Source: a virus
Length of the DNA: 64,000 nucleotides
Virus record (IMG/VR): IMGVR_UViG_3300042821_000035
Strand: one strand, 5' to 3'
The notes beneath the pieces are model-generated. The model saw nothing but the letters and a program-made list of their open reading frames with translations. It ran no database searches and was not told where the DNA came from. The position numbers and the translations under genes are program-made. Positions 2,271 through 33,977 of the stretch are shown one piece after another; position 1 is the stretch's first letter; every line of letters begins with the position of its first letter.

Positions 2271-2377
2271 GTTAAGACTATTGGCAAGGCGGTGCACGGC
2301 AAGTCGCGGTCAGGCCGGTTCAGGTTTGGTGGCGCTGGTCAAGGCACGGGAAGGGGTGGACTTCGGTCTGCCCCTTC
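2271..2377 (+). ncRNA. Stand-alone GGY-NN guide-like RNA (solo VIPR-type unit) with 3' hairpin
   Basis: 20-nt leader GTTAAGACTATTGGCAAGGC identical to 31554-31573; 13 in-register pentamers 2283-2347; hairpin GAAGGGGTGGAC-TTCG-GTCTGCCCCTTC at 2350-2377. Confidence 0.75.
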
Positions 2378-3311
2378 ATTCTTCCTGCTCTTGGATAGCT
2401 GCAAAACGTCGGTCCCCCCATGGAATAAAACTGCATCTGCAGTTGGGATGAGCGGGAATCAAATCGCTTGCTTGATCAATGTCGTAAGGTCCGCCCTCGG
2501 CGATGTCTAAGCAATCATCACAAACCCGGTCGTCTCCCGCAGTCAAAACGTTGACCAGCTTGATTTTGGCTTGCTCCTCCTCGATGGCGGCGAGCAACTC
2601 GGCTACCACCTCGGCCACCACCAACGCCTTGGCGGCCTTCCTCTTGCCCCCCCTACCCTTGCGCTTGGCGTCGTGAATATGCGGTAGCCACTCAGGATCA
2701 ATGCCGACCTGCTTGATGCCCGCGTGCTTGTAGGCGTGCAGCTTGCCTGCGTTGACGGCTCGAACCACACCGGTGTTGACCAGCAAGTGCAGCCTGAGCT
2801 TGGTGATCTTCTCCAGCGTCGCGCGTATCTCGCGCATCAATTCTTCCGGGCTGCGCTTGCGCAGCACCGCGTGCGAGGTGTGCCGGATCATCCGCCGCTC
2901 GGTCTCGGACGCGATCCCGATCACCTCGGCGGTCGCCATGTAGCCATGGGTCTGGCCGAGATCAGTGGAATCCAGCTGCGCCATGTCGTGCTTCAATTCG
3001 CGCTCGGCTTGGCCGATGCCATGCTCGACTGCGTCCGCCATCACCTTCCACAGCCAGTGCGGCTCGTTGGATAGCTCACGCCCCACCACCTGCCGCATCA
3101 TCATCTCGGAGCGCGACATTTTCTGGGACTTGCTCTCGATCCACGCAATGATCTCACCCGGCAGCATCGGGCCCTCGCTGCGCAGCCCGGTCACGTCATG
3201 ATCGAGCACCGCCTGCCGCAGCAAAGTGTGGACGTTGAACACCTTGCGATTGACCAGTCCTCGCCCGCGCTGGCGCAATGCGAGGCTCTTGGTGGGGTCG
3301 CGGTGGTTCAT
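2376..3311 (-). CDS. MuF / SPP1 gp7-like head morphogenesis (minor head) protein
   Basis: C-terminal DDRVCDDC...IPAHPNCRCSF motif; position downstream of the portal. Confidence 0.85.
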   Translation of the reverse strand: MNHRDPTKSLALRQRGRGLVNRKVFNVHTLLRQAVLDHDVTGLRSEGPMLPGEIIAWIESKSQKMSRSEMMMRQVVGRELSNEPHWLWKVMADAVEHGIGQAERELKHDMAQLDSTDLGQTHGYMATAEVIGIASETERRMIRHTSHAVLRKRSPEELMREIRATLEKITKLRLHLLVNTGVVRAVNAGKLHAYKHAGIKQVGIDPEWLPHIHDAKRKGRGGKRKAAKALVVAEVVAELLAAIEEEQAKIKLVNVLTAGDDRVCDDCLDIAEGGPYDIDQASDLIPAHPNCRCSFIPWGDRRFAAIQEQEE

Positions 3312-12020: not shown

Positions 12021-12446
12021 TCAATCTTGGTTGGCGTCCTCCAACGCATCTTCGAACTCCTCCTCGTTGTCGATCTCGGGTGGGTTGAGCAGCCGGATGT
12101 CGATACCCCGGCTTTCCAGTTCACGGCGGATTTCCTCGACGCTGCGGTAGGTCACCTCTACCCGCACGTCGGTCTGATTGTTCTCCTGCACCGGGATCAG
12201 GCGCCCGAGCAGCATGCAGAAGGTGCGGCTGTCGTCACGTGCCACGCGTCTAAGATACCCGATCAGCTTGCCCGTGCCACAGCAATCGGAGCCCTCCATC
12301 TCGGCGGCGATCATGATCGCTTCCTTGAGCACGCGGGTGACGTGATTGCCCGAGCCGATCTTGCGGCCGCCCTTCTTCTCGTGGCCGGGTTGAAACAAGT
12401 TCTTCGGCGTCTTGGGTTGCGCAACAGCCTTGGCTGCCTTTGCCAT
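12021..12446 (-). CDS. terS: Terminase small subunit (putative)
   Basis: FQPGHEKKGGRKIGSGNHVTRVLKEAI N-terminal motif typical of small terminases; upstream of terL. Confidence 0.65.
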   Translation of the reverse strand: MAKAAKAVAQPKTPKNLFQPGHEKKGGRKIGSGNHVTRVLKEAIMIAAEMEGSDCCGTGKLIGYLRRVARDDSRTFCMLLGRLIPVQENNQTDVRVEVTYRSVEEIRRELESRGIDIRLLNPPEIDNEEEFEDALEDANQD

Positions 12447-23247: not shown

Positions 23248-24831
23248 CTATCGGCTCCACTGACTGGTCCAATTCACATTCTCCTTCGCTTTGGCTTTGG
23301 CGTATGCAATCTGCCGAGACTTGATCCAGCTCAACGTATCGGGCGATGGCGGCAGCGGAATGACCTCGCCCACCGCTGGCCAAACCCCGAAGCGCTCGCG
23401 GTACTGGTTCGAGGCCCAGCCCTTCTGATAGCCCTGTCGGCGCCCGTAGAACTGTAGCTCGGCAAGGAAGATGCGTTTCTCCTCCATGCTCCAAAGAACC
23501 GGCGGCACCGGCTTCGGCTTCGGCGGCGGCTTCAGCGCGCGAAGCTCGCCAGCGTCCGGCTTGATCTTGCTGACCGCCTGCGCCACGAAGCCGCAGCCCG
23601 GACACTGCGCCATCTTCGGTGGCTTCAGGTAGGCGCACTTCGGGCATTCCTTGGGCAGCCGGATGCCCTCGGTGCGGTTCTCGTGCTCCGGTGTCTTGCC
23701 CTTGCGCAGCCCGGTGTAACTCTCATCAATGTCGGTCACGAAGCCGAGCCGCATGTGGTTGTCGCTGTGATCGAGGATCAGGCAGTCGTCCTTGCCCGGA
23801 GCATTGCGCAGGCCGCGCCCGATGATCTGGGTGAACAACATGTCGGAGCGCGTTGGCCTGCACATCACGATGCAGCGCACATCCCAGTCAATGCCGGTGG
23901 TCAGTGTGCCGACGTTGCACACCACCTGATATTCACCGTTGTGGAATTTCTCCCTGACCGCCTTGCGGCCCTCGACCAACTCGCGACCGATGATGATGCC
24001 GTCCTTGTCCTTCAGCTTGCGCCATTTGCTGGCGTCTGGCGTGTCGCCGTCCTGATAGCCGCACTTCACCCCGGCAGCGATGAACTGTTGCTGCAGTGCC
24101 TTGGCATGCAGCCGGTCAACGCCATAGCACAGCGTCGGCCGTCCCTCGCCCAGCTGCAGCCACGTCTGCACCGCGTCACCGGTCAGCCGCGAGGTGTTCA
24201 TGCGCGCGGCCAATTGCTTCTCGTTGTAGTCGCCTGCCGTCATCTTGATGCCTGACAGGTCAGGGTGCGTCGGCGCATAGACCCGGAACGGCGACAGGTG
24301 CCCGGCGTCGATCATGCCTTGCGTGGTCGAGGCCTTATGGAAGTGGTCGAACCAGTCACCGAGCCCCTTGGTCCACGGCGTCGCGGAGAGACCGATGAAC
24401 GGCACGTTGGCCCATTCCGGCTTCCAGAAATCCTTGGTGCCTACCCAGCGCTCGTAAAACTTGAACCAGATGTGGCACTCGTCGATCAGCACCACGTCGG
24501 CCTTTGGAATCTGCCGCTTCATCAGTGTTTGTACACTAGCGATCTGGACCGGCTGCACCCAATCGTAATTCGGGTTGTCGGCTTGGATCACGCCGACCTC
24601 GGTGATGCCTTGGCTGGCGAACATCGCCATGGTCTGGTCGATCAGGTCGAGCGCTGGCACCGTGAACAGCACACGCTTCTTGCGTTGCAATGCGCTGTTC
24701 ACCAGTGCGGCAGCCAGCACCGTCTTGCCGAAGCCGGTTGAGGCCTGCATGCAGATGCGACGGCGCCCCTCCTTGACCGCGTCGCGTAACGCCTCCAGCG
24801 CATCTTGCTGGTCGTCTCTCAATGTCTTCAT
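23248..24831 (-). CDS. SF2 DEAD/DEAH-box helicase (RadD/YejH-like) with C-terminal zinc finger
   Basis: STGFGKT, DECH, GLSATP, QIIGRGLR; CPKC...CPGC. Confidence 0.93.
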   Translation of the reverse strand: MKTLRDDQQDALEALRDAVKEGRRRICMQASTGFGKTVLAAALVNSALQRKKRVLFTVPALDLIDQTMAMFASQGITEVGVIQADNPNYDWVQPVQIASVQTLMKRQIPKADVVLIDECHIWFKFYERWVGTKDFWKPEWANVPFIGLSATPWTKGLGDWFDHFHKASTTQGMIDAGHLSPFRVYAPTHPDLSGIKMTAGDYNEKQLAARMNTSRLTGDAVQTWLQLGEGRPTLCYGVDRLHAKALQQQFIAAGVKCGYQDGDTPDASKWRKLKDKDGIIIGRELVEGRKAVREKFHNGEYQVVCNVGTLTTGIDWDVRCIVMCRPTRSDMLFTQIIGRGLRNAPGKDDCLILDHSDNHMRLGFVTDIDESYTGLRKGKTPEHENRTEGIRLPKECPKCAYLKPPKMAQCPGCGFVAQAVSKIKPDAGELRALKPPPKPKPVPPVLWSMEEKRIFLAELQFYGRRQGYQKGWASNQYRERFGVWPAVGEVIPLPPSPDTLSWIKSRQIAYAKAKAKENVNWTSQWSR

Positions 24832-28725: not shown

Positions 28726-29330
28726 CGCCTGCTCCTCGGCGCCTCGGCGCCCCAGCGATCCCAATTGACACGCACCTTGCGGGCATTCAACTCGATCTTG
28801 GGCAGCGTCGGATAATAGGCCTCGATCATATCGTAGAAGACACTCGGCTTCTCGCTGTGCCTGCCGCGCGGCGACGTGATCACCGACGCCCATTGCGTGC
28901 CCGGCGCCGGAGCCGGAATGCTGCCACGGGTACCGACCAGCAATAGCTCATGCGTATTCCGATTCCAGTATCCGGTGCCGATCTTGTCCTTGAGCCAGAC
29001 CCAGTGCGATTTGTACTTGAAGCCCCAAGCCTTCATCACCTCCAGCGCCTGCGTCAGCATCGGCACTGTGGCCCAGAGAAACAACACGCAGTGCCGGGCG
29101 GCGATGCTCAGCACGTTGCGCGACTTGATGATGTCCAGCGACGAGGTGGCGTAGTGGTTGTCGGCAGCGCGATCCATCCCGGTAATGCGGGAGCGCGGTT
29201 CGAACCGCCACTCCGGGTCCGCATAGATCACGCAGTATTTTTTCTTGGGCAGCGCGCGGATTTGCTTTGCTAGTGCCTTCTCGCGTCGCGCCCTGAGCTT
29301 CTGCTTGTCCTTGGTCTTCTGGCTGATCAA
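28722..29330 (-). CDS. MT-A70-family N6-adenine methyltransferase
   Basis: YCVIYADPEW, NHYATSS, CVLFLWAT, AWGFKYKSHWVWLK, HELLLVGTRG, HSEKP. Confidence 0.88.
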   Translation of the reverse strand: MISQKTKDKQKLRARREKALAKQIRALPKKKYCVIYADPEWRFEPRSRITGMDRAADNHYATSSLDIIKSRNVLSIAARHCVLFLWATVPMLTQALEVMKAWGFKYKSHWVWLKDKIGTGYWNRNTHELLLVGTRGSIPAPAPGTQWASVITSPRGRHSEKPSVFYDMIEAYYPTLPKIELNARKVRVNWDRWGAEAPRSRR

Positions 29331-29827
29331 CCAAGCCTCCGGACATTGTGGTTGCTGTACAGGCGCAGGTGCACCCGGCAATAGCTCGACCGTGAGCCGT
29401 TGGCATCAACGGTGCGTGGCTTTCCGCAGACCTTTTGCAACAACCATTTTCCAGCGCGTGGTCGATCCAGAATTGCCTTGCAGCCGTTGGCGGGCAGGTC
29501 GAGGTAATCGACACCTTTCCACACTCGAAGGGCTTCGAGGTCTTTCTCTGTGACGGAAGCCTGCGGGGTTGCTGCTTTGTCGGTCATGCGCGTGCTCCTT
29601 GGCTGGTTGATAGGATGGATAATTTTCGGTGGCGTTGTCTTCGTCGGTTGCGATGTAGTGCGACGGAAAGGATTCTGTTTCTCCGCGATGCGAAAGCGGC
29701 GCCCGGCGATGGCATTGCGGCTGACGTTGTAGCCCTTCGCCTTCATGCCCTCGGCGACGTAGCCGTATGATCCGCCCTCGTCGAACAACTTGATCAGCAG
29801 ACTGTCCGCTTCTTCGGTCCAGATCAT
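29327..29827 (-). CDS. gcrA: GcrA-like cell-cycle transcription regulator
   Basis: WTEE...VSRNAIAGRRFRI HTH; C-terminal YLDLPANGCK...VCG...SYCRVH Cys/His motif. Confidence 0.8.
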   Translation of the reverse strand: MIWTEEADSLLIKLFDEGGSYGYVAEGMKAKGYNVSRNAIAGRRFRIAEKQNPFRRTTSQPTKTTPPKIIHPINQPRSTRMTDKAATPQASVTEKDLEALRVWKGVDYLDLPANGCKAILDRPRAGKWLLQKVCGKPRTVDANGSRSSYCRVHLRLYSNHNVRRLG

Positions 29828-30057
29828 CAAGCTCGCCTTTTGAAAACGTCCGGGCGAATCTGCTCGGGTGTCATCTCCAGTAGCGGCGCCAGATCGAGCA
29901 CGTGGTGGGCCGGGACTCGTTTCCACGCCGAGACGTTCTGCGGTGAGATGCCGAGATGCTTGGCGACCGCCGCCGCAAACCCGGCCCGTGCGAAAATCAT
30001 TTTCATCACGTCGTCCCGGTGCTCACCACGCTCTGATCTCTTCATGTACTTGCTCAT
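29827..30057 (-). CDS. Cro/YdaS-like helix-turn-helix regulator
   Basis: AAAVAKHLGISPQNVSAWKRVPAHHV...EQIRPDVF; exact start uncertain (30057 or 30099). Confidence 0.85.
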   Translation of the reverse strand: MSKYMKRSERGEHRDDVMKMIFARAGFAAAVAKHLGISPQNVSAWKRVPAHHVLDLAPLLEMTPEQIRPDVFKRRA

Positions 30058-30226: not shown

Positions 30227-31012
30227 ATGGCAGTGAAGAAGAAGACCGAGAAGCCCGCCCCCATCACAACAAAGGGGGTGATCAACCTCGCCGAGTTGAT
30301 GTCCACCGAGGTGGCCTACCAGCATTTCCGCATCTGGCTGGTTGGCGGTACGCCGCTGATCACGCACGCATGGTCCGAGAAGGCCAAGCGGGAGATGCTG
30401 CAGAAGCAGGTCAAGGGTACCAAGGGCGGCAAGGAAGCCCGCGATCCGCATGATGACTTCGTGAACTCGCTCTATGAGATGGGCCACGTCAAAGGCAAAC
30501 CGATCTATGGTTTCCCGGTCACCGGAATCAAGAACGCGATTCTGTCTGCCGCGCACAAGGACAAGGGCGTGCCACGCACGACCGTGATGAGCGCACTCTA
30601 TCTCGACGCAAATTTGGTTCGCGTCAGGCCAGCGCTCGCTGGTGCGATTTGTGACATGCCCTTGGTGCGCATCTACTCCGGCGATCCGGAGATGCGCGAG
30701 GACATGGTTCGCGTCGGTGCTGGCCTGAACAAGAAGGCATCGCTCGCCTATCGCGGACAGTTCACGCACTGGGCGGTCAGAATCACCGGCAAGTTCAATA
30801 GCGCGGTGCTCAACGGTCAGCAGCTTGGCTTCCTCATCAACGAGTCTGGCACTGGGGTGGGCATTGGCGAATGGCGCAACGAAAAACGTGGCATGTTTGG
30901 CGCGTTCCGCATGGCCAACCTCGCCGAGGGTGAGGCTTGGGAAAAATTCGCGGCGGGTAAGGGGCCGCTGCCGAAGCGTGAGGAAGACGACATTCTGGAA
31001 GCAGCGGAGTAA
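30227..31012 (+). CDS. Cas7/RAMP-like RNA-binding protein (Vipr-like effector), 261 aa
   Basis: N-terminal strand FRIWLVGGTPLITHAW, central YGFPVTGIKNAILSAA, C-terminal Gly-rich loop GTGVGIGEWRNEKRGMFGAF; AAAGGAGCAA RBS; adjacent pentamer array; no cas1/cas2/cas3 nearby. Confidence 0.75.
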   Translation: MAVKKKTEKPAPITTKGVINLAELMSTEVAYQHFRIWLVGGTPLITHAWSEKAKREMLQKQVKGTKGGKEARDPHDDFVNSLYEMGHVKGKPIYGFPVTGIKNAILSAAHKDKGVPRTTVMSALYLDANLVRVRPALAGAICDMPLVRIYSGDPEMREDMVRVGAGLNKKASLAYRGQFTHWAVRITGKFNSAVLNGQQLGFLINESGTGVGIGEWRNEKRGMFGAFRMANLAEGEAWEKFAAGKGPLPKREEDDILEAAE

Positions 31013-31019
31013 TCACAAC

Positions 31020-31553
31020 ATGATCCGATACGTTTTTAAGGACAAACCTCTCGTCATCAAGGGAGGCGCTAAAGCCGATCCACAAAAGATCGGCGAGGCG
31101 CTGGCGAGAATCAGGGAGCAGACCAAGGGCCGGTGCAATTCAAAGACCGTGCTCGATGCTGCGCGCAACAACAAGCACTACCTGCATCGCTTCTTTGAAT
31201 GGCGCGACACCATCGCGGCGGAAAAGTATCGGCAGGAGCAGGCGCGCGAGCTTGTCGGCTGCGTTGATATTGTCGAGCGCGCTGAGAAGAAGGGCGATGC
31301 CGACAGGCGGTTGCCTGCGTTCATCAGCCTGTCAGAAAAGGGCGGTCGCAATATTCGCACGGTGCAGGAGGTGCTCGAAAGCAGCGCGCTGCAGGCGATA
31401 GCGCTGAAGCAAGCGGAAAATGATCTAGCTGCTTACGAGCGGCGGCTAGAGGTATTCGGTGATATCTGCAACGCGATCAGGCAAGCAAGAGAAATGATCG
31501 CTGCGCGGCGCGCACGGTACGAGGCTTCGGGCGGTTTTCCGGGGCACGCGTAG
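31020..31553 (+). CDS. Conserved-looking accessory protein between the RAMP gene and the array (177 aa)
   Basis: ATG 7 nt after the RAMP stop; LHRFFEWRDTIAAEKYRQEQARELV motif; its stop abuts the array leader. Confidence 0.75.
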   Translation: MIRYVFKDKPLVIKGGAKADPQKIGEALARIREQTKGRCNSKTVLDAARNNKHYLHRFFEWRDTIAAEKYRQEQARELVGCVDIVERAEKKGDADRRLPAFISLSEKGGRNIRTVQEVLESSALQAIALKQAENDLAAYERRLEVFGDICNAIRQAREMIAARRARYEASGGFPGHA

Positions 31554-32403
31554 GTTAAGACTATTGGCAAGGCAGGTCATGGCTCGTTCTGGTTTGGCGT
31601 GTCGGGGCCGTAGTCAGGCATGGCAAGGCAGGCGAGGCACGGCAAGGCCCGGCTGCGCAAGTCGGGGCATGGCGAGGCCGAGCAAGGCAAGGCAAGGCAG
31701 GCGAGGCGTGGCATTGTATGACTCGACTCGGTCAGGCAGGTCCGCGCGTGGCAAGGCAGGCATGGCTTGTCCGGTCAAGGCCCGGAGCGGCGATGGCGTT
31801 GTAAGTCGGCGCACGGCAAGGCAGGCACGGCGTGTCTGGTTCAGGCTTCGCATCGCAAAGCGCTGCAGGGCTAAGGCAAGGCAGGCGTGGCGCGGCGCGA
31901 CGTGGCTAGGTCAGTCAGGTTCAGGCGAGGCTTGGTCTGTTGCGGCGAGGCAAGGCAAGGCAAGGCAGGCGTGGCTTGGCACTCTACGGCAAGGCGGTGT
32001 CCGGCACGTCGGTGTAAGGCAGGCATGGCCGGGCTGGGTGCGGCAGAGTCGGGAGTGTCATGTCGTGTTCTGGTCAGGCAAGGCAATGCGCGTCTGGTCT
32101 CTGCAAGGCAGGCACGGCGGGGCGCGGCTGATCTGGGTTAGGTTGGTCGCGTTACTGCAAGCCATGGCAAGGCAGGCTTGGCAAGGCTGGTCTCGGAGTG
32201 GCGATGTCAGTTCAGGCATTGCTAGTCGGGAGGCTGGCGAGGCAAGGCAGGCAAGGCGTGGCGACGCAATGCGCGGCTAGTCCGTGCCGGGCGGTTGCGA
32301 GGCTTAGTCTGGAGTGCCAAGGCAAGGCAGGCAAGGTCCGTCCAGTCCGATCTAGTCGAGGCGTTTTTCGGCGAGGCGGGGTGGTGCTGGTCAAGGCAGG
32401 CTA
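31554..32403 (+). repeat. GGY-NN pentamer array (candidate multi-guide vrRNA), 12 units delimited by AAGGCAGGC
   Basis: 5-nt periodicity; AAGGCAGGC at 31625, 31694, 31753, 31818, 31878, 31962, 32016, 32105, 32169, 32244, 32324, 32393. Confidence 0.93.
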
Positions 32404-32406
32404 ATC

Positions 32407-32432
32407 GGGGGTGAGCGCTGTTGCTCACCCCC
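32407..32432 (+). terminator. Hairpin GGGGGTGAGC-GCTGTT-GCTCACCCCC closing the array
   Basis: Perfect 10-bp stem right after the last AAGGCAGGC. Confidence 0.7.
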
Positions 32433-32457
32433 ACAATTTCAAAAAAGGAGCAAAAAA

Positions 32458-33393
32458 GTGGAAGTCAGAAAATGGGATGGCAAGCCAATCACAGAGAACG
32501 GTTGGGTCAGCGACATCCCCATTGAGCGCTATCACAGCGCCGGAATGTGCTCTGGCCCGTCGGTGTCGAGCACTGATTTGCGCACGTGCTGGAGCCACTC
32601 GCCCGCGAAGATGTTTGCGTTCTGGGCCGAGAATCCGCAGCGCGAGGAGCGCGAGGTCACCAACGCCATGCTGCTTGGCGGCTGCGCGCATTATCTCCTG
32701 CTCGGCGAAGCAAACTTCCGTCAGAAGTATGCGGCGCAGCCCGAAGAATATCCGGGCCCGAAGGGCGAAATGAAGAAGTGGCACATGGGCGCCGACTACT
32801 GCAAGGAGTGGGTCGCGTTTCATGAGGCCAAGGGCTTCACCATCGTCACGGTCAAGATACTGAACGCTATCGTCAAGATGGCCGAGTCGCTGCGCATCTT
32901 GGCGCTGGTCAAGGATGGCTTGCTGCGTGGCCATGTCGAAACGTCTGGCTTCTTCTGGGACCAAGAAAGCAACCTTTGGTTAAAAGTCAGGCCCGATGTG
33001 GTCCCGTCCGACGGTCCCGAGTTCGTAGACCTGAAGACCGCTGCCGACGTGACAACGGTCGCGCTGCAGAACAGCATCCACACCTATGGCTACAATCAAC
33101 AGGCTGCGCTGATCGCCGAAGTCTGCGAAGGACTCGGCCAGCCGTTTGACGGCTTCATGTGCATGTTTGTCGAGACCAAGGCGCCGTACTGCGCGCGCAT
33201 GGCGCCGCTGACAGACGTTGATCTCGGGCTGGGCCGCCAGCAAAACCGCGACAGCCTGCGCAGGATCAGCGCGAGCATCAAGGCCGGACACTGGCCGGGG
33301 CCGGGCGAGGACAACCCGCTGCAGCCGCTGGGCATGGGCAAAGACAAACGCGAGCGCATCATGGCGAGATTGACGCATGAAGGATTGGTATAA
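32458..33393 (+). CDS. Exonuclease VIII/RecE-like PD-(D/E)xK nuclease (DUF3799-like)
   Basis: VSSTDL, LKVRPDVV, FVDLKTAAD, YGYNQQAA; upstream of recT. Confidence 0.85.
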   Translation: MEVRKWDGKPITENGWVSDIPIERYHSAGMCSGPSVSSTDLRTCWSHSPAKMFAFWAENPQREEREVTNAMLLGGCAHYLLLGEANFRQKYAAQPEEYPGPKGEMKKWHMGADYCKEWVAFHEAKGFTIVTVKILNAIVKMAESLRILALVKDGLLRGHVETSGFFWDQESNLWLKVRPDVVPSDGPEFVDLKTAADVTTVALQNSIHTYGYNQQAALIAEVCEGLGQPFDGFMCMFVETKAPYCARMAPLTDVDLGLGRQQNRDSLRRISASIKAGHWPGPGEDNPLQPLGMGKDKRERIMARLTHEGLV

Positions 33394-33977
33394 TGGCTAA
33401 GACTTTTTCGGTGAGACTGGAGATAGAAGAGATCGCGCTCGGCACCGTGCTGCGCAAGCTGCACGACATGCCCGGCGTGGCGAAGCTCGATCTGGATTTC
33501 GGGGAGGGTGGCAAGGGGCCCGGCAAGGAGAAGCTGCAGCAGGCGGCAGCCGAGTTGAACGGCTCTCCGGAGGAGGCGATCCTCAAGGCGCTGGCCAACG
33601 GCCCGATGAAGTCGCGCGACCTGATCAACGCCACCGGCATGAAGGACCATCGCGTCTATTATGCCATCGGCAAGCTCGGTCTCAAGCGCAACGCCGAGGG
33701 CCTGTATCAGGTGACGGCGCTGTCTGCTCCTGATGTCCAGCGTGGTCCAAACGGCCGGGCGGCGCCGGGATCGGGTCCGGCTTTACTACGGCTGGCACTG
33801 GGCTCGGGCCCGCTACCGGTCGCCGAGTTGAAGTCGATCCTGCGTGGCCACGGCATGTCTCCCAAGTCACTGTCAGGCGTGATGGACCGAGCCAAACGGG
33901 ACAACCTGATCAAGAAGGTTGGCGAGGGCTACACGCTGACCGCCAAGGCGAAGGCCAACGGTGAAGCGCATGGCTAA
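33393..33977 (+). CDS. Putative winged-helix DNA-binding protein
   Basis: Two wHTH-like segments (ILKALANGPMKSRDL; LRLALGSGPLPVAEL). Confidence 0.55.
   Translation: MAKTFSVRLEIEEIALGTVLRKLHDMPGVAKLDLDFGEGGKGPGKEKLQQAAAELNGSPEEAILKALANGPMKSRDLINATGMKDHRVYYAIGKLGLKRNAEGLYQVTALSAPDVQRGPNGRAAPGSGPALLRLALGSGPLPVAELKSILRGHGMSPKSLSGVMDRAKRDNLIKKVGEGYTLTAKAKANGEAHG

What the first reader, a model, noticed from the sequence alone, without database searches (positions are those of the whole stretch)
31554..32403. Internal grammar of the array: constant GGY, variable NN, and a register-shifting AAGGCAGGC delimiter
Seen: 12 AAGGCAGGC landmarks spaced 69, 59, 65, 60, 84, 54, 89, 64, 75, 80, 69 nt; seven spacings are 5n+4 and four are 5n. 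The landmark reads GGC-AA-GGC-A-GGC, a single 4-nt step breaking the 5-nt register. The trinucleotide is mostly GGC/GGT with variants (GTC, CGC, TGT, GAC), while NN varies freely. Unit from 31631: GA AC AA CC TG AA GG AT GA CG. Unit from 31700: GA GT AT AT TC TC CA AG CG GT. The units compared differ in NN series, which argues against simple slippage. Inference: the landmark is a processing/boundary site and each unit a separate guide. If every third target base is skipped, pairing could ignore codon wobble positions in a target gene.
Basis: partly seen in the sequence, partly recalled or inferred. Interest (0 to 1): 0.88.

Follow-up and report, generated by a model that had tools for sequence, protein, structure and literature searches.

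The report
Phage VIPR guide array with punctuation
This 850-base stretch is the guide-RNA array of a phage VIPR system, a CRISPR-related DNA-silencing system first described in 2026. Its 13 guides are separated by a one-base "comma", and three decoded guides spell conserved motifs of rival elements' genes while skipping each codon's third base.

Summary
Observation confirmed exactly. There are 12 AAGGCAGGC landmarks, all on the + strand, against 0.66 expected. The spacings are as stated, and there is strong 5-nt GGY periodicity with single 4-nt steps.

The stretch is the vrRNA array of a VIPR system (bioRxiv 10.64898/2026.04.26.720920). It lies directly downstream of a Cas7-like Vipr gene and a partner gene in an ~85-kb soil phage. 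It most likely matches the preprint's "staggered array" format, which is described there only in a figure legend.

- In 7 guide-target pairs from related phages, 91% of NN bases match inside a unit. Only 22-23% (chance) match across the 4-nt step.
- Three of this phage's 14 guides have exact 10-dinucleotide natural targets with the skipped base at the codon wobble position: a sibling phage's helicase motif (also in 7 viral contigs), a MuF-like head-protein motif (also in 21 viral contigs), and tyrosine-integrase genes (12 metagenome contigs).
- The phage's own homologues differ at NN positions.
- A sibling phage's guide targets this phage in return.

RNA cleavage at the landmark is not shown. 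This is a new member of a known kind. This scan has already found VIPR systems on at least 8 other genomes.

The parts
30227..31012 (+). vipr gene (261 aa, stand-alone Cas7-like RAMP)
   Evidence: The best PDB sequence hit is the SUSP1 Vipr protein 36pp_D (E 0.02). It aligns thumb Arg (R138 to R176) and G-loop D177-W178-R179 to E215-W216-R217, and these residues are invariant in 42 homologues. The AF2 model has pLDDT 80. All top Foldseek and VIA matches are CRISPR RAMPs, with Z 9.0 to Csm3 9g9f_D.
31020..31553 (+). vap-like accessory gene (177 aa)
   Evidence: It starts 7 nt after the vipr stop, and its TAG abuts the array. It matches phrog_15946 and has 28 homologues, always next to vipr. The AF2 model has pLDDT 92: a small alpha/beta domain plus a 48-residue C-terminal helix. 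There is no significant structural match, only weak winged-helix-like rows.
31554..31573 (+). 20-nt array leader, which includes the first two constant tokens (tt-GGC aa-GGC)
   Evidence: It is identical to 2271-2290, the start of the solo guide. There are no other copies in the window and none in 101 fetched loci.
31564..31629 (+). guide unit U0 (13 tokens)
   Evidence: Its 10-token core AG AT TC CT TT GT GG CG CA AT matches 20/20 (24/26 for the whole unit; shuffles reach at most 19) on the DEAD/ResIII helicase gene of the closest relative. The skipped base is the wobble position. There are 7 further exact hits in IMG/VR, all encoding MCRPTKSDMLF.
31630..31698 (+). guide unit U1 (a-GGC, 10 core tokens, three aa-GGC)
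   Evidence: The core GA AC AA CC TG AA GG AT GA CG has 13 exact hits in metagenome contigs. Twelve are in tyrosine-integrase genes at the motif [DE]TNPC[KN]GIER, in codon register.
31699..31757 (+). guide unit U2 (12 tokens)
   Evidence: Tokeniser. No target found.
31758..31822 (+). guide unit U3 (13 tokens, one 6-nt step 'gat')
   Evidence: Tokeniser. No target found.
31823..31882 (+). guide unit U4 (12 tokens, one 6-nt step 'taa')
   Evidence: Tokeniser. No target found.
31883..31966 (+). guide unit U5 (17 tokens)
   Evidence: Tokeniser. A 16-nt seed scan gave 19 chance hits with no extension.
31967..32020 (+). guide unit U6 (11 tokens)
   Evidence: Tokeniser. The IMG/VR scan gave 0 hits.
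32021..32109 (+). guide unit U7 (18 tokens)
   Evidence: Tokeniser. No target found.
32110..32173 (+). guide unit U8 (13 tokens)
   Evidence: Tokeniser. No target found.
32174..32248 (+). guide unit U9 (15 tokens, one 6-nt step 'gct')
   Evidence: Tokeniser. No target found.
32249..32328 (+). guide unit U10 (16 tokens, one 6-nt step 'ggt')
   Evidence: Tokeniser. No target found.
32329..32401 (+). guide unit U11 (14 tokens) plus the closing a-GGC of the 12th landmark
   Evidence: Tokeniser. The IMG/VR scan gave 0 hits.
32407..32432 (+). 10-bp G+C hairpin closing the array (3' stabiliser or partial terminator)
   Evidence: RNA fold -23 kcal/mol, z -4.5. Related arrays also end in hairpins, some with T-runs.
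2271..2349 (+). solo vrRNA gene 29 kb from the array (same leader, 10 core tokens, ends tg-GTC aa-GGC a)
   Evidence: The leader is identical. The core GG AC AA GC CA CG CA TT GG TG matches 20/20 on the relative's MuF-like gene, with wobble skip. It also has 21 exact hits in IMG/VR (17 DNA variants), all encoding HPNCRCA[FL]VP apart from two with HPKC.
2350..2377 (+). 12-bp hairpin with UUCG loop closing the solo vrRNA
   Evidence: RNA fold -21.9 kcal/mol, z -3.2.
12118..12161 (-). site in this phage that a guide of the sibling phage matches (reciprocal targeting)
   Evidence: The relative's unit at L102:14694 matches 25/30 (25/28 without its constant aa token; shuffles reach at most 21). The site lies in ORF 12021-12446(-), phrog_11043, just upstream of the large terminase, and the skipped base is codon position 3.
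23248..24831 (-). this phage's own helicase, homologue of U0's target
   Evidence: It is 61% identical to the relative's helicase. At the homologous site only 18/26 guide bases match, owing to Lys to Arg and a Ser codon-family switch AGC to TCC.
2376..3311 (-). this phage's own MuF-like gene, homologue of the solo guide's target
   Evidence: The homologous site (2415-2453) differs in 3 codons at NN positions: Arg CGC to AGA, Ala to Ser, Val to Ile.

Best explanation
The stretch is the guide-RNA (vrRNA) array of a phage-encoded VIPR system. It is transcribed on the + strand, downstream of vipr (30227-31012) and its partner gene (31020-31553). The RNA is a chain of pentamers. By the published mechanism, each GGY triplet is gripped by Vipr protomers that polymerise along the RNA, one protomer per pentamer. 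The two free bases (NN) are presented for pairing with double-stranded DNA in a gapped register, NN-x-NN-x, where x is usually the codon wobble base. The published outcome is transcriptional silencing of the bound gene.

The array holds 13 guides of about 10-17 pentamers, and a 14th guide stands alone at 2271-2349. Guides are not separated by repeats, tails or ribozymes. They are separated by a one-base spacer (GGC-A-GGC) that shifts the 5-nt register by one. In this clade the spacer is embedded in a constant AA-GGC-A-GGC.

Shown here:
- Target complementarity runs from the first NN after one 4-nt step to just before the next, and does not cross it.
- The constant tokens (5' tt/aa or a, and 3' aa) sit outside the perfectly matched core in the three window-clade pairs; their own match (4 of 12 bases) is near chance, so whether they pair is not settled.
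- A 3-nt spacer contributes its first two bases (one case).
- Three guides spell conserved peptide motifs of a sibling phage's helicase, of MuF-like head proteins, and of integrases of small integrative elements.
- The phage's own homologues are spared by changes at NN positions.

Inferred:
- The register break ends one Vipr filament and starts the next.
- The RNA is cut or trimmed there into RNAs of about 55-90 nt.
- Binding silences rival elements in the same host.
For: Protein:
- The nearest PDB sequence hit is SUSP1 Vipr, with the GGY-contacting residues conserved.
- The model has a RAMP fold, Z 9.0 to Csm3, and all top-50 rows are CRISPR RAMPs.

Architecture:
- 70 of 83 loci examined (the window, 80 IMG/VR loci holding a homologue, one genome locus and phage Saal) have a GGY 5-nt array, always on the vipr strand and mostly about 0.5 kb downstream of vipr.
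- GGY-N-GGY steps recur in all arrays. 394 of 627 spacings are 5n+4, with modes at 49-64 nt.
- The closest relative has 37 AAGGCAGGC landmarks in a 3.3-kb array with the same grammar.

Code:
- 548 guides were scored against 1.4 Mb. The 1-nt skip rule gives 7 guides at >=90% match. The 0-nt rule gives 1, the 2-nt rule gives 0, and seven shuffles give 0-2.
- The skipped base is codon position 3 of the long + strand ORF at all five best sites; PHROG matches or the vipr gene itself back the gene call.

Boundary:
- 91% of NN bases match inside units, against 22-23% across the steps.

Window guides:
- U0.
- U1.
- Solo guide.
- Four other 18-20-nt guide patterns gave 0 hits in the same viral collection, so the background is about zero.
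- No self-target in the 85-kb contig for the 12 array units tested, U0-U11; the solo guide was checked only at its own homologous site.

RNA:
- In one soil metatranscriptome, the only two contigs on a 3.7-kb stretch lie inside the array.
- Hairpins close the array and the solo guide.

Mechanism as published: 10.64898/2026.04.26.720920 and 10.64898/2026.04.26.720927.
Against: - No RNA ends were mapped. The metatranscriptome evidence is two low-depth contigs, and DNA carry-over cannot be excluded.
- No binding, silencing or RNP formation was tested for this clade.
- Eleven of the 14 guides have no identified target.
- This Vipr is only distantly related to the characterised SUSP1 protein (E 0.02), and the array lacks the conserved 3' tail and pseudoknot of type II vrRNAs. 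Details of filament capping may therefore differ.
- I could read only the legend of the preprint's figure on staggered arrays, so the equation 'landmark = staggered junction' is probable, not certain.
- The pattern scans fix the NN bases by design, so constancy of NN among hits is not independent evidence. The evidence is the number of hits and their shared gene, motif and codon register.
Confidence: 0.85

Rival explanations
1. Same VIPR array, but the landmark is not a cleavage site. The array acts as one long transcript on which separate Vipr filaments assemble side by side. The one-base spacer only breaks filament register, working as punctuation without processing.
For: Nothing here shows RNA ends. 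No ribozyme or Rfam family lies in the array. The units have no conserved hairpin that an RNase would recognise. Two metatranscriptome contigs, of 151 and 226 nt, span more than one unit.
Against: The preprint's fig. S18 legend speaks of 'individual processed vrRNAs' in staggered arrays. Characterised vrRNAs are discrete RNAs of about 100 nt. Contigs from an assembler cannot show whether mature RNAs are shorter.
Confidence: 0.2
2. A DNA-level element, for example a G-rich protein-binding or G-quadruplex-prone array that regulates the downstream RecE/RecT-like recombination genes. The resemblance to vrRNAs would be coincidental.
For: It has a strong G skew and sits directly upstream of the exonuclease/RecT module. 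The terminator-like hairpin lacks a long T-run.
Against: The array travels with vipr-vap, not with the recombination genes. In the closest relative the cassette lies apart from exo/RecT. It is strand-specific in 70 loci. NN strings decode to exact gene targets in codon register. A solo copy sits in the head-gene region.
Confidence: 0.03
3. A degenerate microsatellite produced by replication slippage, or a Gly/Arg/Ala-rich protein encoded by the open frame 31564-32280.
For: Tandem Repeats Finder reports short 5-nt arrays. A 238-codon open frame exists, and gene callers place ORFs over the relative's array.
Against: A 5-nt period is incompatible with coding. The units differ in every NN and no unit is shared with 80 related arrays. 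The punctuation is regular. Decoded targets exist.
Confidence: 0.01

Closest known systems
VIPR systems with 'staggered' vrRNA arrays (bioRxiv 10.64898/2026.04.26.720920, fig. S18 legend)
   Same: It has a stand-alone Vipr RAMP and a vap gene. The guides are made of GGY/NN pentamers and placed back to back, so that the end of one marks the start of the next with a 1-nt overlap. Read as NNGGY units, AAGG[C]AGGC shares one C. It is phage-borne and follows the 1-nt skip rule.
   Different: Only the figure legend could be read, so identity of format is inferred. The preprint says this format was not among those confirmed by small-RNA sequencing. Added here: complementarity stops at the step; the spacer base is clade-specific (A here, T or C elsewhere); this clade has an extended constant AA-GGC-A-GGC that lies outside the matched core; arrays reach about 45 guides in a sibling phage.
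Type II VIPR of Escherichia phage SUSP1 / Pseudomonas fulva prophage (same preprints; PDB 36pp)
   Same: The code is the same (GGY held by protein, NN pairs, one target base skipped, wobble register). There are 9-16 repeats per guide. The thumb Arg and G-loop D/E-W-R are conserved. Solo vrRNAs sit elsewhere in the phage. Targets are rival mobile elements, including a recombinase.
   Different: Protein similarity is marginal (E 0.02, one 66-residue stretch). There is no conserved ~40-nt 3' tail or pseudoknot, and guides abut directly. The Vipr is larger (261 against 202 aa). The host and habitat differ (soil; probably an alphaproteobacterial host).
Class 1 CRISPR crRNA arrays with Cas7 backbone filaments
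   Same: A RAMP protein polymerises along a guide RNA and flips out bases periodically. There is an array of many guides against mobile elements, and the fold matches Csm3/Cas7 (Z 9).
   Different: There are no direct repeats, no Cas6-type handle, no adaptation genes and no contiguous spacer. Two of every five RNA bases carry the information, and punctuation is a single-base register shift.
Hammerhead-ribozyme-interspersed VIPR arrays (same preprint, fig. S19)
   Same: Many vrRNAs in one transcript.
   Different: No ribozyme or any Rfam family lies in or around this array.

Membership tests
VIPR system | Stand-alone RAMP (Vipr) with RRM core, thumb and glycine-rich loop, outside any CRISPR-Cas locus | tested here: met
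   AF2 model Z 9.0 to Csm3, with all top-50 rows CRISPR RAMPs. Sequence hit to SUSP1 Vipr, with R138/D177/W178/R179 equivalents conserved and invariant in 42 homologues. The only Rfam row near the array is a sub-threshold CRISPR-DR29 match inside the exonuclease gene, 20.5 bits against a gathering score of 39, and there are no cas genes among the neighbours.
VIPR system | Adjacent accessory gene (vap) | tested here: met
   A 177-aa gene lies 7 nt downstream of vipr and is conserved next to vipr in relatives. A DNA-binding role is not established: there are only weak winged-helix-like rows.
VIPR system | vrRNA genes made of tandem YNNGG (GGY/NN) pentamers, at least 4 units and typically 9-16 per guide | tested here: met
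   169 tokens. 60% are GGC or GGT and the rest are one-off variants. Units hold 11-18 tokens. Across 69 loci the token count per unit peaks at 10-13.
VIPR system | NN dinucleotides specify targets with a one-nucleotide skip, usually the codon wobble base, on either DNA strand | tested here: met
   Only the 1-nt skip rule beats the controls: at >=90% match the 0- and 2-nt rules give 1 and 0 guides and seven shuffles give 0-2; the 7 hits of the 3-nt rule lie on array-like stretches left unmasked. Three window guides have exact 20/20 cores in codon register, on both strands.
VIPR system | No self-targeting by the element's own guides | tested here: met
   The best self scores of the 12 array units U0-U11 on the 85-kb contig lie within the shuffle range. 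The solo guide was not scanned against the whole contig. The own helicase and MuF homologues differ at NN positions.
VIPR system | vrRNAs are expressed, co-purify with Vipr and direct DNA binding or silencing | not testable with these tools
   The only hint is one soil metatranscriptome with two contigs confined to the array.
Staggered vrRNA array format | Guides abut with a 1-nt overlap, so that the end of one marks the start of the next | tested here: met
   There is a 4-nt step GGC-A-GGC at every unit junction. Complementarity stops there. The step recurs with 5n+4 spacing in related arrays. The match to the preprint's figure rests on its legend only.
Staggered vrRNA array format | Individual processed RNAs with ends at the junctions | not testable with these tools
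   The laid runs were assembler contigs, which cannot show RNA ends.
Type II (SUSP1-like) VIPR | Conserved ~40-nt 3' tail with pseudoknot after each repeat tract | tested here: not met
   Units follow one another without any tail. Only the last unit and the solo guide are followed by a simple hairpin.
CRISPR array | Direct repeats of 20-40 nt alternating with contiguous spacers, plus cas genes | tested here: not met
   The only constant element is 9 nt. There is no match to any Rfam CRISPR repeat within the array, and there are no cas1/cas2/cas6 genes nearby.

The most novel reading that the evidence does not exclude
The single-base spacer may be a protein-read punctuation mark. It would be a structure-free, repeat-free way to delimit guides, in which a one-base register slip ends one Vipr filament and nucleates the next. 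That would allow arrays of 13 to about 45 guides with almost no overhead. The guides are aimed at peptide motifs rather than at DNA sequences: one guide covers 17 DNA variants of HPNCRCAFVP. The only synonymous escape, or self-sparing, route is then a switch between six-fold codon families (Ser AGY/TCN, Arg CGN/AGR). That switch is seen at both of this phage's own homologous sites. Sibling phages aim such guides at each other.
Probability: 0.4. Interest if true: 0.6.

Novelty: new member of a known kind. Interest (0 to 1): 0.42.

Why it matters
The system itself was described in 2026 preprints, so the class is not new. This locus is useful for four reasons.
- It is a clean natural example of the least characterised array format. 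That format was not experimentally confirmed in the preprint.
- It gives sequence-level evidence that a one-base register shift is the guide boundary.
- It gives decoded natural targets for three guides, showing that the guides work as peptide-motif probes tolerant of all wobble variation.
- It shows two sibling soil phages that each carry a guide matching the other.

It also points to cultured mycobacteriophages of the same protein family. In those phages the punctuation and processing question could be tested directly.

Tried and rejected
- Rfam scan of 30500-33500: only one sub-threshold CRISPR-DR29 row inside the exonuclease gene, and no ribozyme or known RNA family.
- blastn against phage genomes: found only compositionally similar arrays in mycobacteriophages. 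These turned out to be real VIPR loci.
- Exact gapped scans of IMG/VR: U1 and U2 (20 nt) and U6 and U11 (18 nt) gave 0 hits.
- A 16-nt seed of U5 gave 19 hits, all chance (extension at most 7/16).
- U2-U11 have no target in the own contig, in 80 related loci, in nine complete or near-complete related IMG/VR records, or in 82.9 kb of the closest relative.
- The U1 pattern with up to 1 mismatch gave 0 hits in 401 genomes of the order of the one bacterial genome found to carry a homologue.
- No guide is shared between this array and 80 related arrays.
- The vap model gave no significant structural match.
- The scan of bacterial genomes with a single protein found only one locus, and relatives cannot be drawn for a virus record.
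- Reads could be laid only as contigs, so the proposed mapping of RNA ends could not be done.
- The promoter and terminator scan found no sigma-70-type promoter, and did not call the closing hairpin a terminator.
- Folding single units gave only weak z-scores (-2.4 and -1.9) and no recurrent hairpin.
Full report
**1. The observation**

The sequence is as described.
- AAGGCAGGC occurs 12 times between 31625 and 32393, only on the + strand. Shuffles of the window give a mean of 0.66 and at most 3.
- The spacings are 69, 59, 65, 60, 84, 54, 89, 64, 75, 80, 69.
- GGC autocorrelation is concentrated at lags 5, 10, 15, with a side peak one base shorter. The stretch is 41.5% G.
- A dynamic-programming tokeniser that allows spacers of 1, 2 or 3 bases before each GGC-like triplet reads the region as 13 units of 11-18 tokens.
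- The first unit follows a 10-nt leader. Each of the other twelve begins with a one-base spacer (a-GGC) and ends in aa-GGC.
- The four spacings that are multiples of five each contain one additional 6-nt step.
- Triplets are GGC (91 of 169), GTC, GGT, TGC and rarer variants. The variants cluster in the middle of units.
- All 16 dinucleotides occur as NN.

**2. Context**

The window is part of an 85,350-bp virus record.
- The array follows two + strand genes. The first (30227-31012) encodes 261 aa and matches phrog_4652. The second (31020-31553) encodes 177 aa and matches phrog_15946. The second gene's stop codon abuts the array.
- Downstream are a RecE-like exonuclease, RecT and an HNH protein.
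- Upstream and divergent are a Cro/YdaS-like gene and a GcrA-like gene.
- A 10-bp G+C hairpin closes the array (-23 kcal/mol, z -4.5).
- Rfam finds no family in the array.

**3. What it is**

- VIPR systems consist of a stand-alone RAMP protein (Vipr), an accessory gene (vap) and vrRNAs of 9-16 YNNGG repeats.
- Vipr protomers polymerise on the RNA, one per repeat, and sequester each GGY.
- The NN bases pair with double-stranded DNA while every third target base is skipped. The skipped base is usually the wobble position.
- The outcome is transcriptional silencing of competing mobile elements.
- Seven types are reported. Array formats include tails with a pseudoknot (type II), hammerhead-interspersed arrays, single vrRNAs, and 'staggered arrays with overlapping vrRNAs'. 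The last was not among the formats confirmed by RNA sequencing.

**4. Membership, tested**

- The 261-aa protein's best match among all PDB sequences is the SUSP1 Vipr protein (36pp_D, E 0.02).
- The aligned stretch places this protein's R176 on the thumb residue R138. It places E215-W216-R217 on the G-loop D177-W178-R179, the residues the cryo-EM preprint reports to hold G1, G2 and Y3.
- All of these residues are invariant in an alignment of 42 homologues.
- An AlphaFold2 model (pLDDT 80) matches only CRISPR RAMPs. Foldseek probability is 0.98. VIA Z is 9.0 to Csm3 over residues 28-233, and all 50 top rows are Csm3, Cas7, Cas7-11 or Cmr.
- The family is large and unannotated: more than 1,467 homologues, none named.
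- The partner protein folds confidently (pLDDT 92) into a small alpha/beta domain plus a long helix. It has no significant structural match, and the weak rows are winged-helix proteins.

**5. The array format is conserved**

- 70 of the 83 loci examined (the window, 80 IMG/VR loci that encode a homologue, one genome locus and phage Saal) carry a GGY 5-nt array. It is always on the vipr strand and mostly about 0.5 kb downstream of vipr, that is, after the partner gene.
- Every array contains GGY-N-GGY steps.
- Of 627 spacings between such steps, 394 are 5n+4 and 151 are 5n, with modes at 54, 49, 59 and 64 nt.
- Token counts per unit peak at 10-13.
- The spacer base is clade-specific. It is A with the full AAGGCAGGC in the window's clade (L003, L015, L017, L018, L040). 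It is T or C elsewhere (AAGGCTGGC, GAGGCTGGC, AAGGCCGGC).
- The closest relative is an 86-kb ENA contig whose Vipr is 74% identical. It has a 3.3-kb array with 37 AAGGCAGGC landmarks and about 45 units of the same grammar.
- Around the landmark only GGC-AA-GGC-A-GGC is conserved. The NN on both sides are variable.
- No guide of the window is shared with any of the 80 related arrays.
- Related arrays also end in hairpins, some of them classical terminators.

**6. The code and the boundary**

- 548 units from 69 loci were scored against 1.4 Mb of related phage DNA with the arrays masked.
- At 90% or more of NN bases matched, the 1-nt skip rule gives 7 units.
- The 0-nt rule gives 1, the 2-nt rule gives 0, and each of seven shuffles of NN order gives 0-2. 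At 85% the counts are 28 against 10-20.
- The best sites lie in a major tail gene, a large terminase, a ParB-methyltransferase, a phrog_15346 gene and another phage's vipr.
- In all five sites checked, the skipped base is codon position 3 of the long + strand ORF.
- In seven pairs, 138 of 152 NN bases match inside the unit.
- Tokens of the neighbouring units, continued in register across the 4-nt step, match at 21/97 or 19/83. That is chance level.
- Complementarity is therefore bounded by the steps.

**7. Targets of this phage's own guides**

*U0 (31564-31629).*
- Its 10-token core matches 20/20 on the DEAD/ResIII helicase gene of the sibling contig, at the peptide VICRPTKSDMLFT. For the whole unit the match is 24/26, and 50 shuffles reach at most 19.
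- The skipped bases are the wobble positions.
- The 3-nt spacer 'cgt' pairs through its first two bases.
- The same core has 7 exact hits in IMG/VR, in 6 DNA variants, all encoding MCRPTKSDMLF.
- This phage's own helicase is 61% identical. At the homologous site it matches only 18/26, through Lys to Arg and a Ser AGC to TCC family switch.

*The solo guide.*
It shares the 20-nt leader with the array and ends in the same tg-GTC aa-GGC a, followed by a hairpin.
- Its 10-token core matches 20/20 on the sibling's 333-aa MuF-like gene at AHPNCRCAFVPWG, in wobble register.
- It has 21 exact hits in IMG/VR, in 17 DNA variants from contigs of 43-66% G+C. Nineteen encode HPNCRCA[FL]VP and two encode HPKCRCAFVP. 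Every skip position varies.
- The own homologue (2376-3311, minus strand) differs in three codons at NN positions, one of them a synonymous Arg CGC to AGA switch.

*U1.*
- Its core has 13 exact hits in metagenome contigs.
- Twelve are tyrosine-integrase genes with Arm-binding, central and catalytic domains. The site is [DE]TNPC[KN]GIER, in four DNA variants.
- One such contig shows host genes, then the integrase, then small ORFs and a VapE-like gene. That layout is typical of a small integrative, satellite-like element.
- It recalls the published SUSP1 case in which a satellite's recombinase is the target.

*Background and self-targeting.*
- Four other guide patterns of 18-20 specified bases gave no hit at all in the same viral collection.
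- The U1 pattern with one mismatch allowed gave none in 401 bacterial genomes.
- The 12 array units U0-U11 have no self-target above shuffles in the own contig. The solo guide was compared only with its own homologous site.

*Reciprocal targeting.*
- One unit of the sibling's array matches this phage at 12118-12161. The match is 25/30, or 25/28 without its constant token, and shuffles reach at most 21.
- The site is in codon register inside the small ORF just upstream of the large terminase.

**8. RNA**

- The identical array is present in soil and sediment metagenomes from at least 15 studies.
- In the one metatranscriptome that holds it, the only two contigs on a 3.7-kb stretch (vipr to exonuclease) lie inside the array, at 31874-32024 and 32155-32380.
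- This fits a stable, abundant array RNA. But depth is low, DNA carry-over is possible, and contigs cannot show ends.

**9. Mechanism**

*Shown:*
- the protein family;
- the array grammar and its conservation;
- the 1-nt-skip wobble register;
- guide boundaries at the one-base spacer;
- constant end tokens that lie outside the perfectly matched cores (4 of 12 bases match, near chance);
- natural targets for three guides;
- sparing of self.

*Taken from the preprints:*
- filament assembly with one protomer per pentamer;
- a gapped R-loop/triplex on double-stranded DNA;
- silencing.

*Inferred:*
- Two neighbouring protomers jointly hold each GGY at a fixed 5-nt pitch, so a 4-nt step cannot be bridged. 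It would end one filament and begin the next.
- The exposed junction would then be cut or trimmed by a nuclease that is not identified.
- The main rival is the same system without cleavage.

**10. Novelty**

- The class, the code and the wobble logic are published.
- A second preprint recovers 99 VIPR-like 5-nt clusters from sequence alone.
- This scan has already reported VIPR systems on at least eight other genomes, several filed under staggered arrays.
- This locus is therefore a new member of a known kind.
- I could not find the following in the accessible texts:
  - the flank test showing that the register step bounds complementarity;
  - the clade-specific spacer base and the extended constant AA-GGC-A-GGC;
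  - the first-two-bases behaviour of a 3-nt spacer (one case);
  - the codon-family switches at the phage's own homologous sites;
  - the reciprocal guides of two sibling phages.

Noticed in passing
window 2271-2377: A solo vrRNA gene lies in the head-gene region on the strand opposite to its neighbours. It shares the array's 20-nt leader and is closed by a UUCG hairpin. It sits about 40 nt from the 3' end of this phage's own MuF-like gene, which is the homologue of the gene it targets in other phages.
   Followed up: yes
L001 3001-3986 (Mycobacterium phage Saal, NC_023580.1 36584-37569): Cultured mycobacteriophages (Saal, Gorge, DRBy19, Donkeykong, Mattes and about 20 more) carry a GGC pentamer array directly upstream of a 248-aa 'hypothetical protein'. 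That protein is a clear Vipr homologue (hhalign probability 99.3%, E 7e-21). They offer a laboratory model for this protein family.
   Followed up: partly
L102 11700-15110 (ENA contig_56424): The closest relative's array is 3.3 kb with about 45 guides. Gene callers placed spurious ORFs across it, just as the window has a 238-codon open frame at 31564-32280.
   Followed up: partly
window 23248-24831 and 2415-2453: At both sites where this phage's own genes are homologous to its guides' targets, one of the differences is a synonymous switch between six-fold codon families (Ser AGC to TCC, Arg CGC to AGA). This is the only kind of silent change that a wobble-skipping guide can see.
   Followed up: partly
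L033 3636-3684 and L032 4103-4128: In a related phage, a solo guide upstream of vipr matches another phage's vipr gene at 17/18 in codon register. This is consistent with the published report of VIPR systems targeting each other.
   Followed up: partly
window 29327-29926 (-): A GcrA-like cell-cycle regulator gene (PF07750, E 5.5e-10) lies next to the Cro/YdaS-like gene. The only bacterial genome found with a homologous vipr is a Tianweitania (Hyphomicrobiales). Together these suggest an alphaproteobacterial host.
   Followed up: no
window 31874-32024 and 32155-32380: In one soil metatranscriptome, the only assembled pieces over a 3.7-kb stretch fall inside the array. None fall on vipr, vap or the exonuclease gene.
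   Followed up: partly
L147 136-164: One of the 13 exact U1 matches lies in an unrelated Cys-rich MopE-like repeat protein that happens to contain DTNPCNGIER. This shows that motif-level guides can have off-family matches.
   Followed up: no
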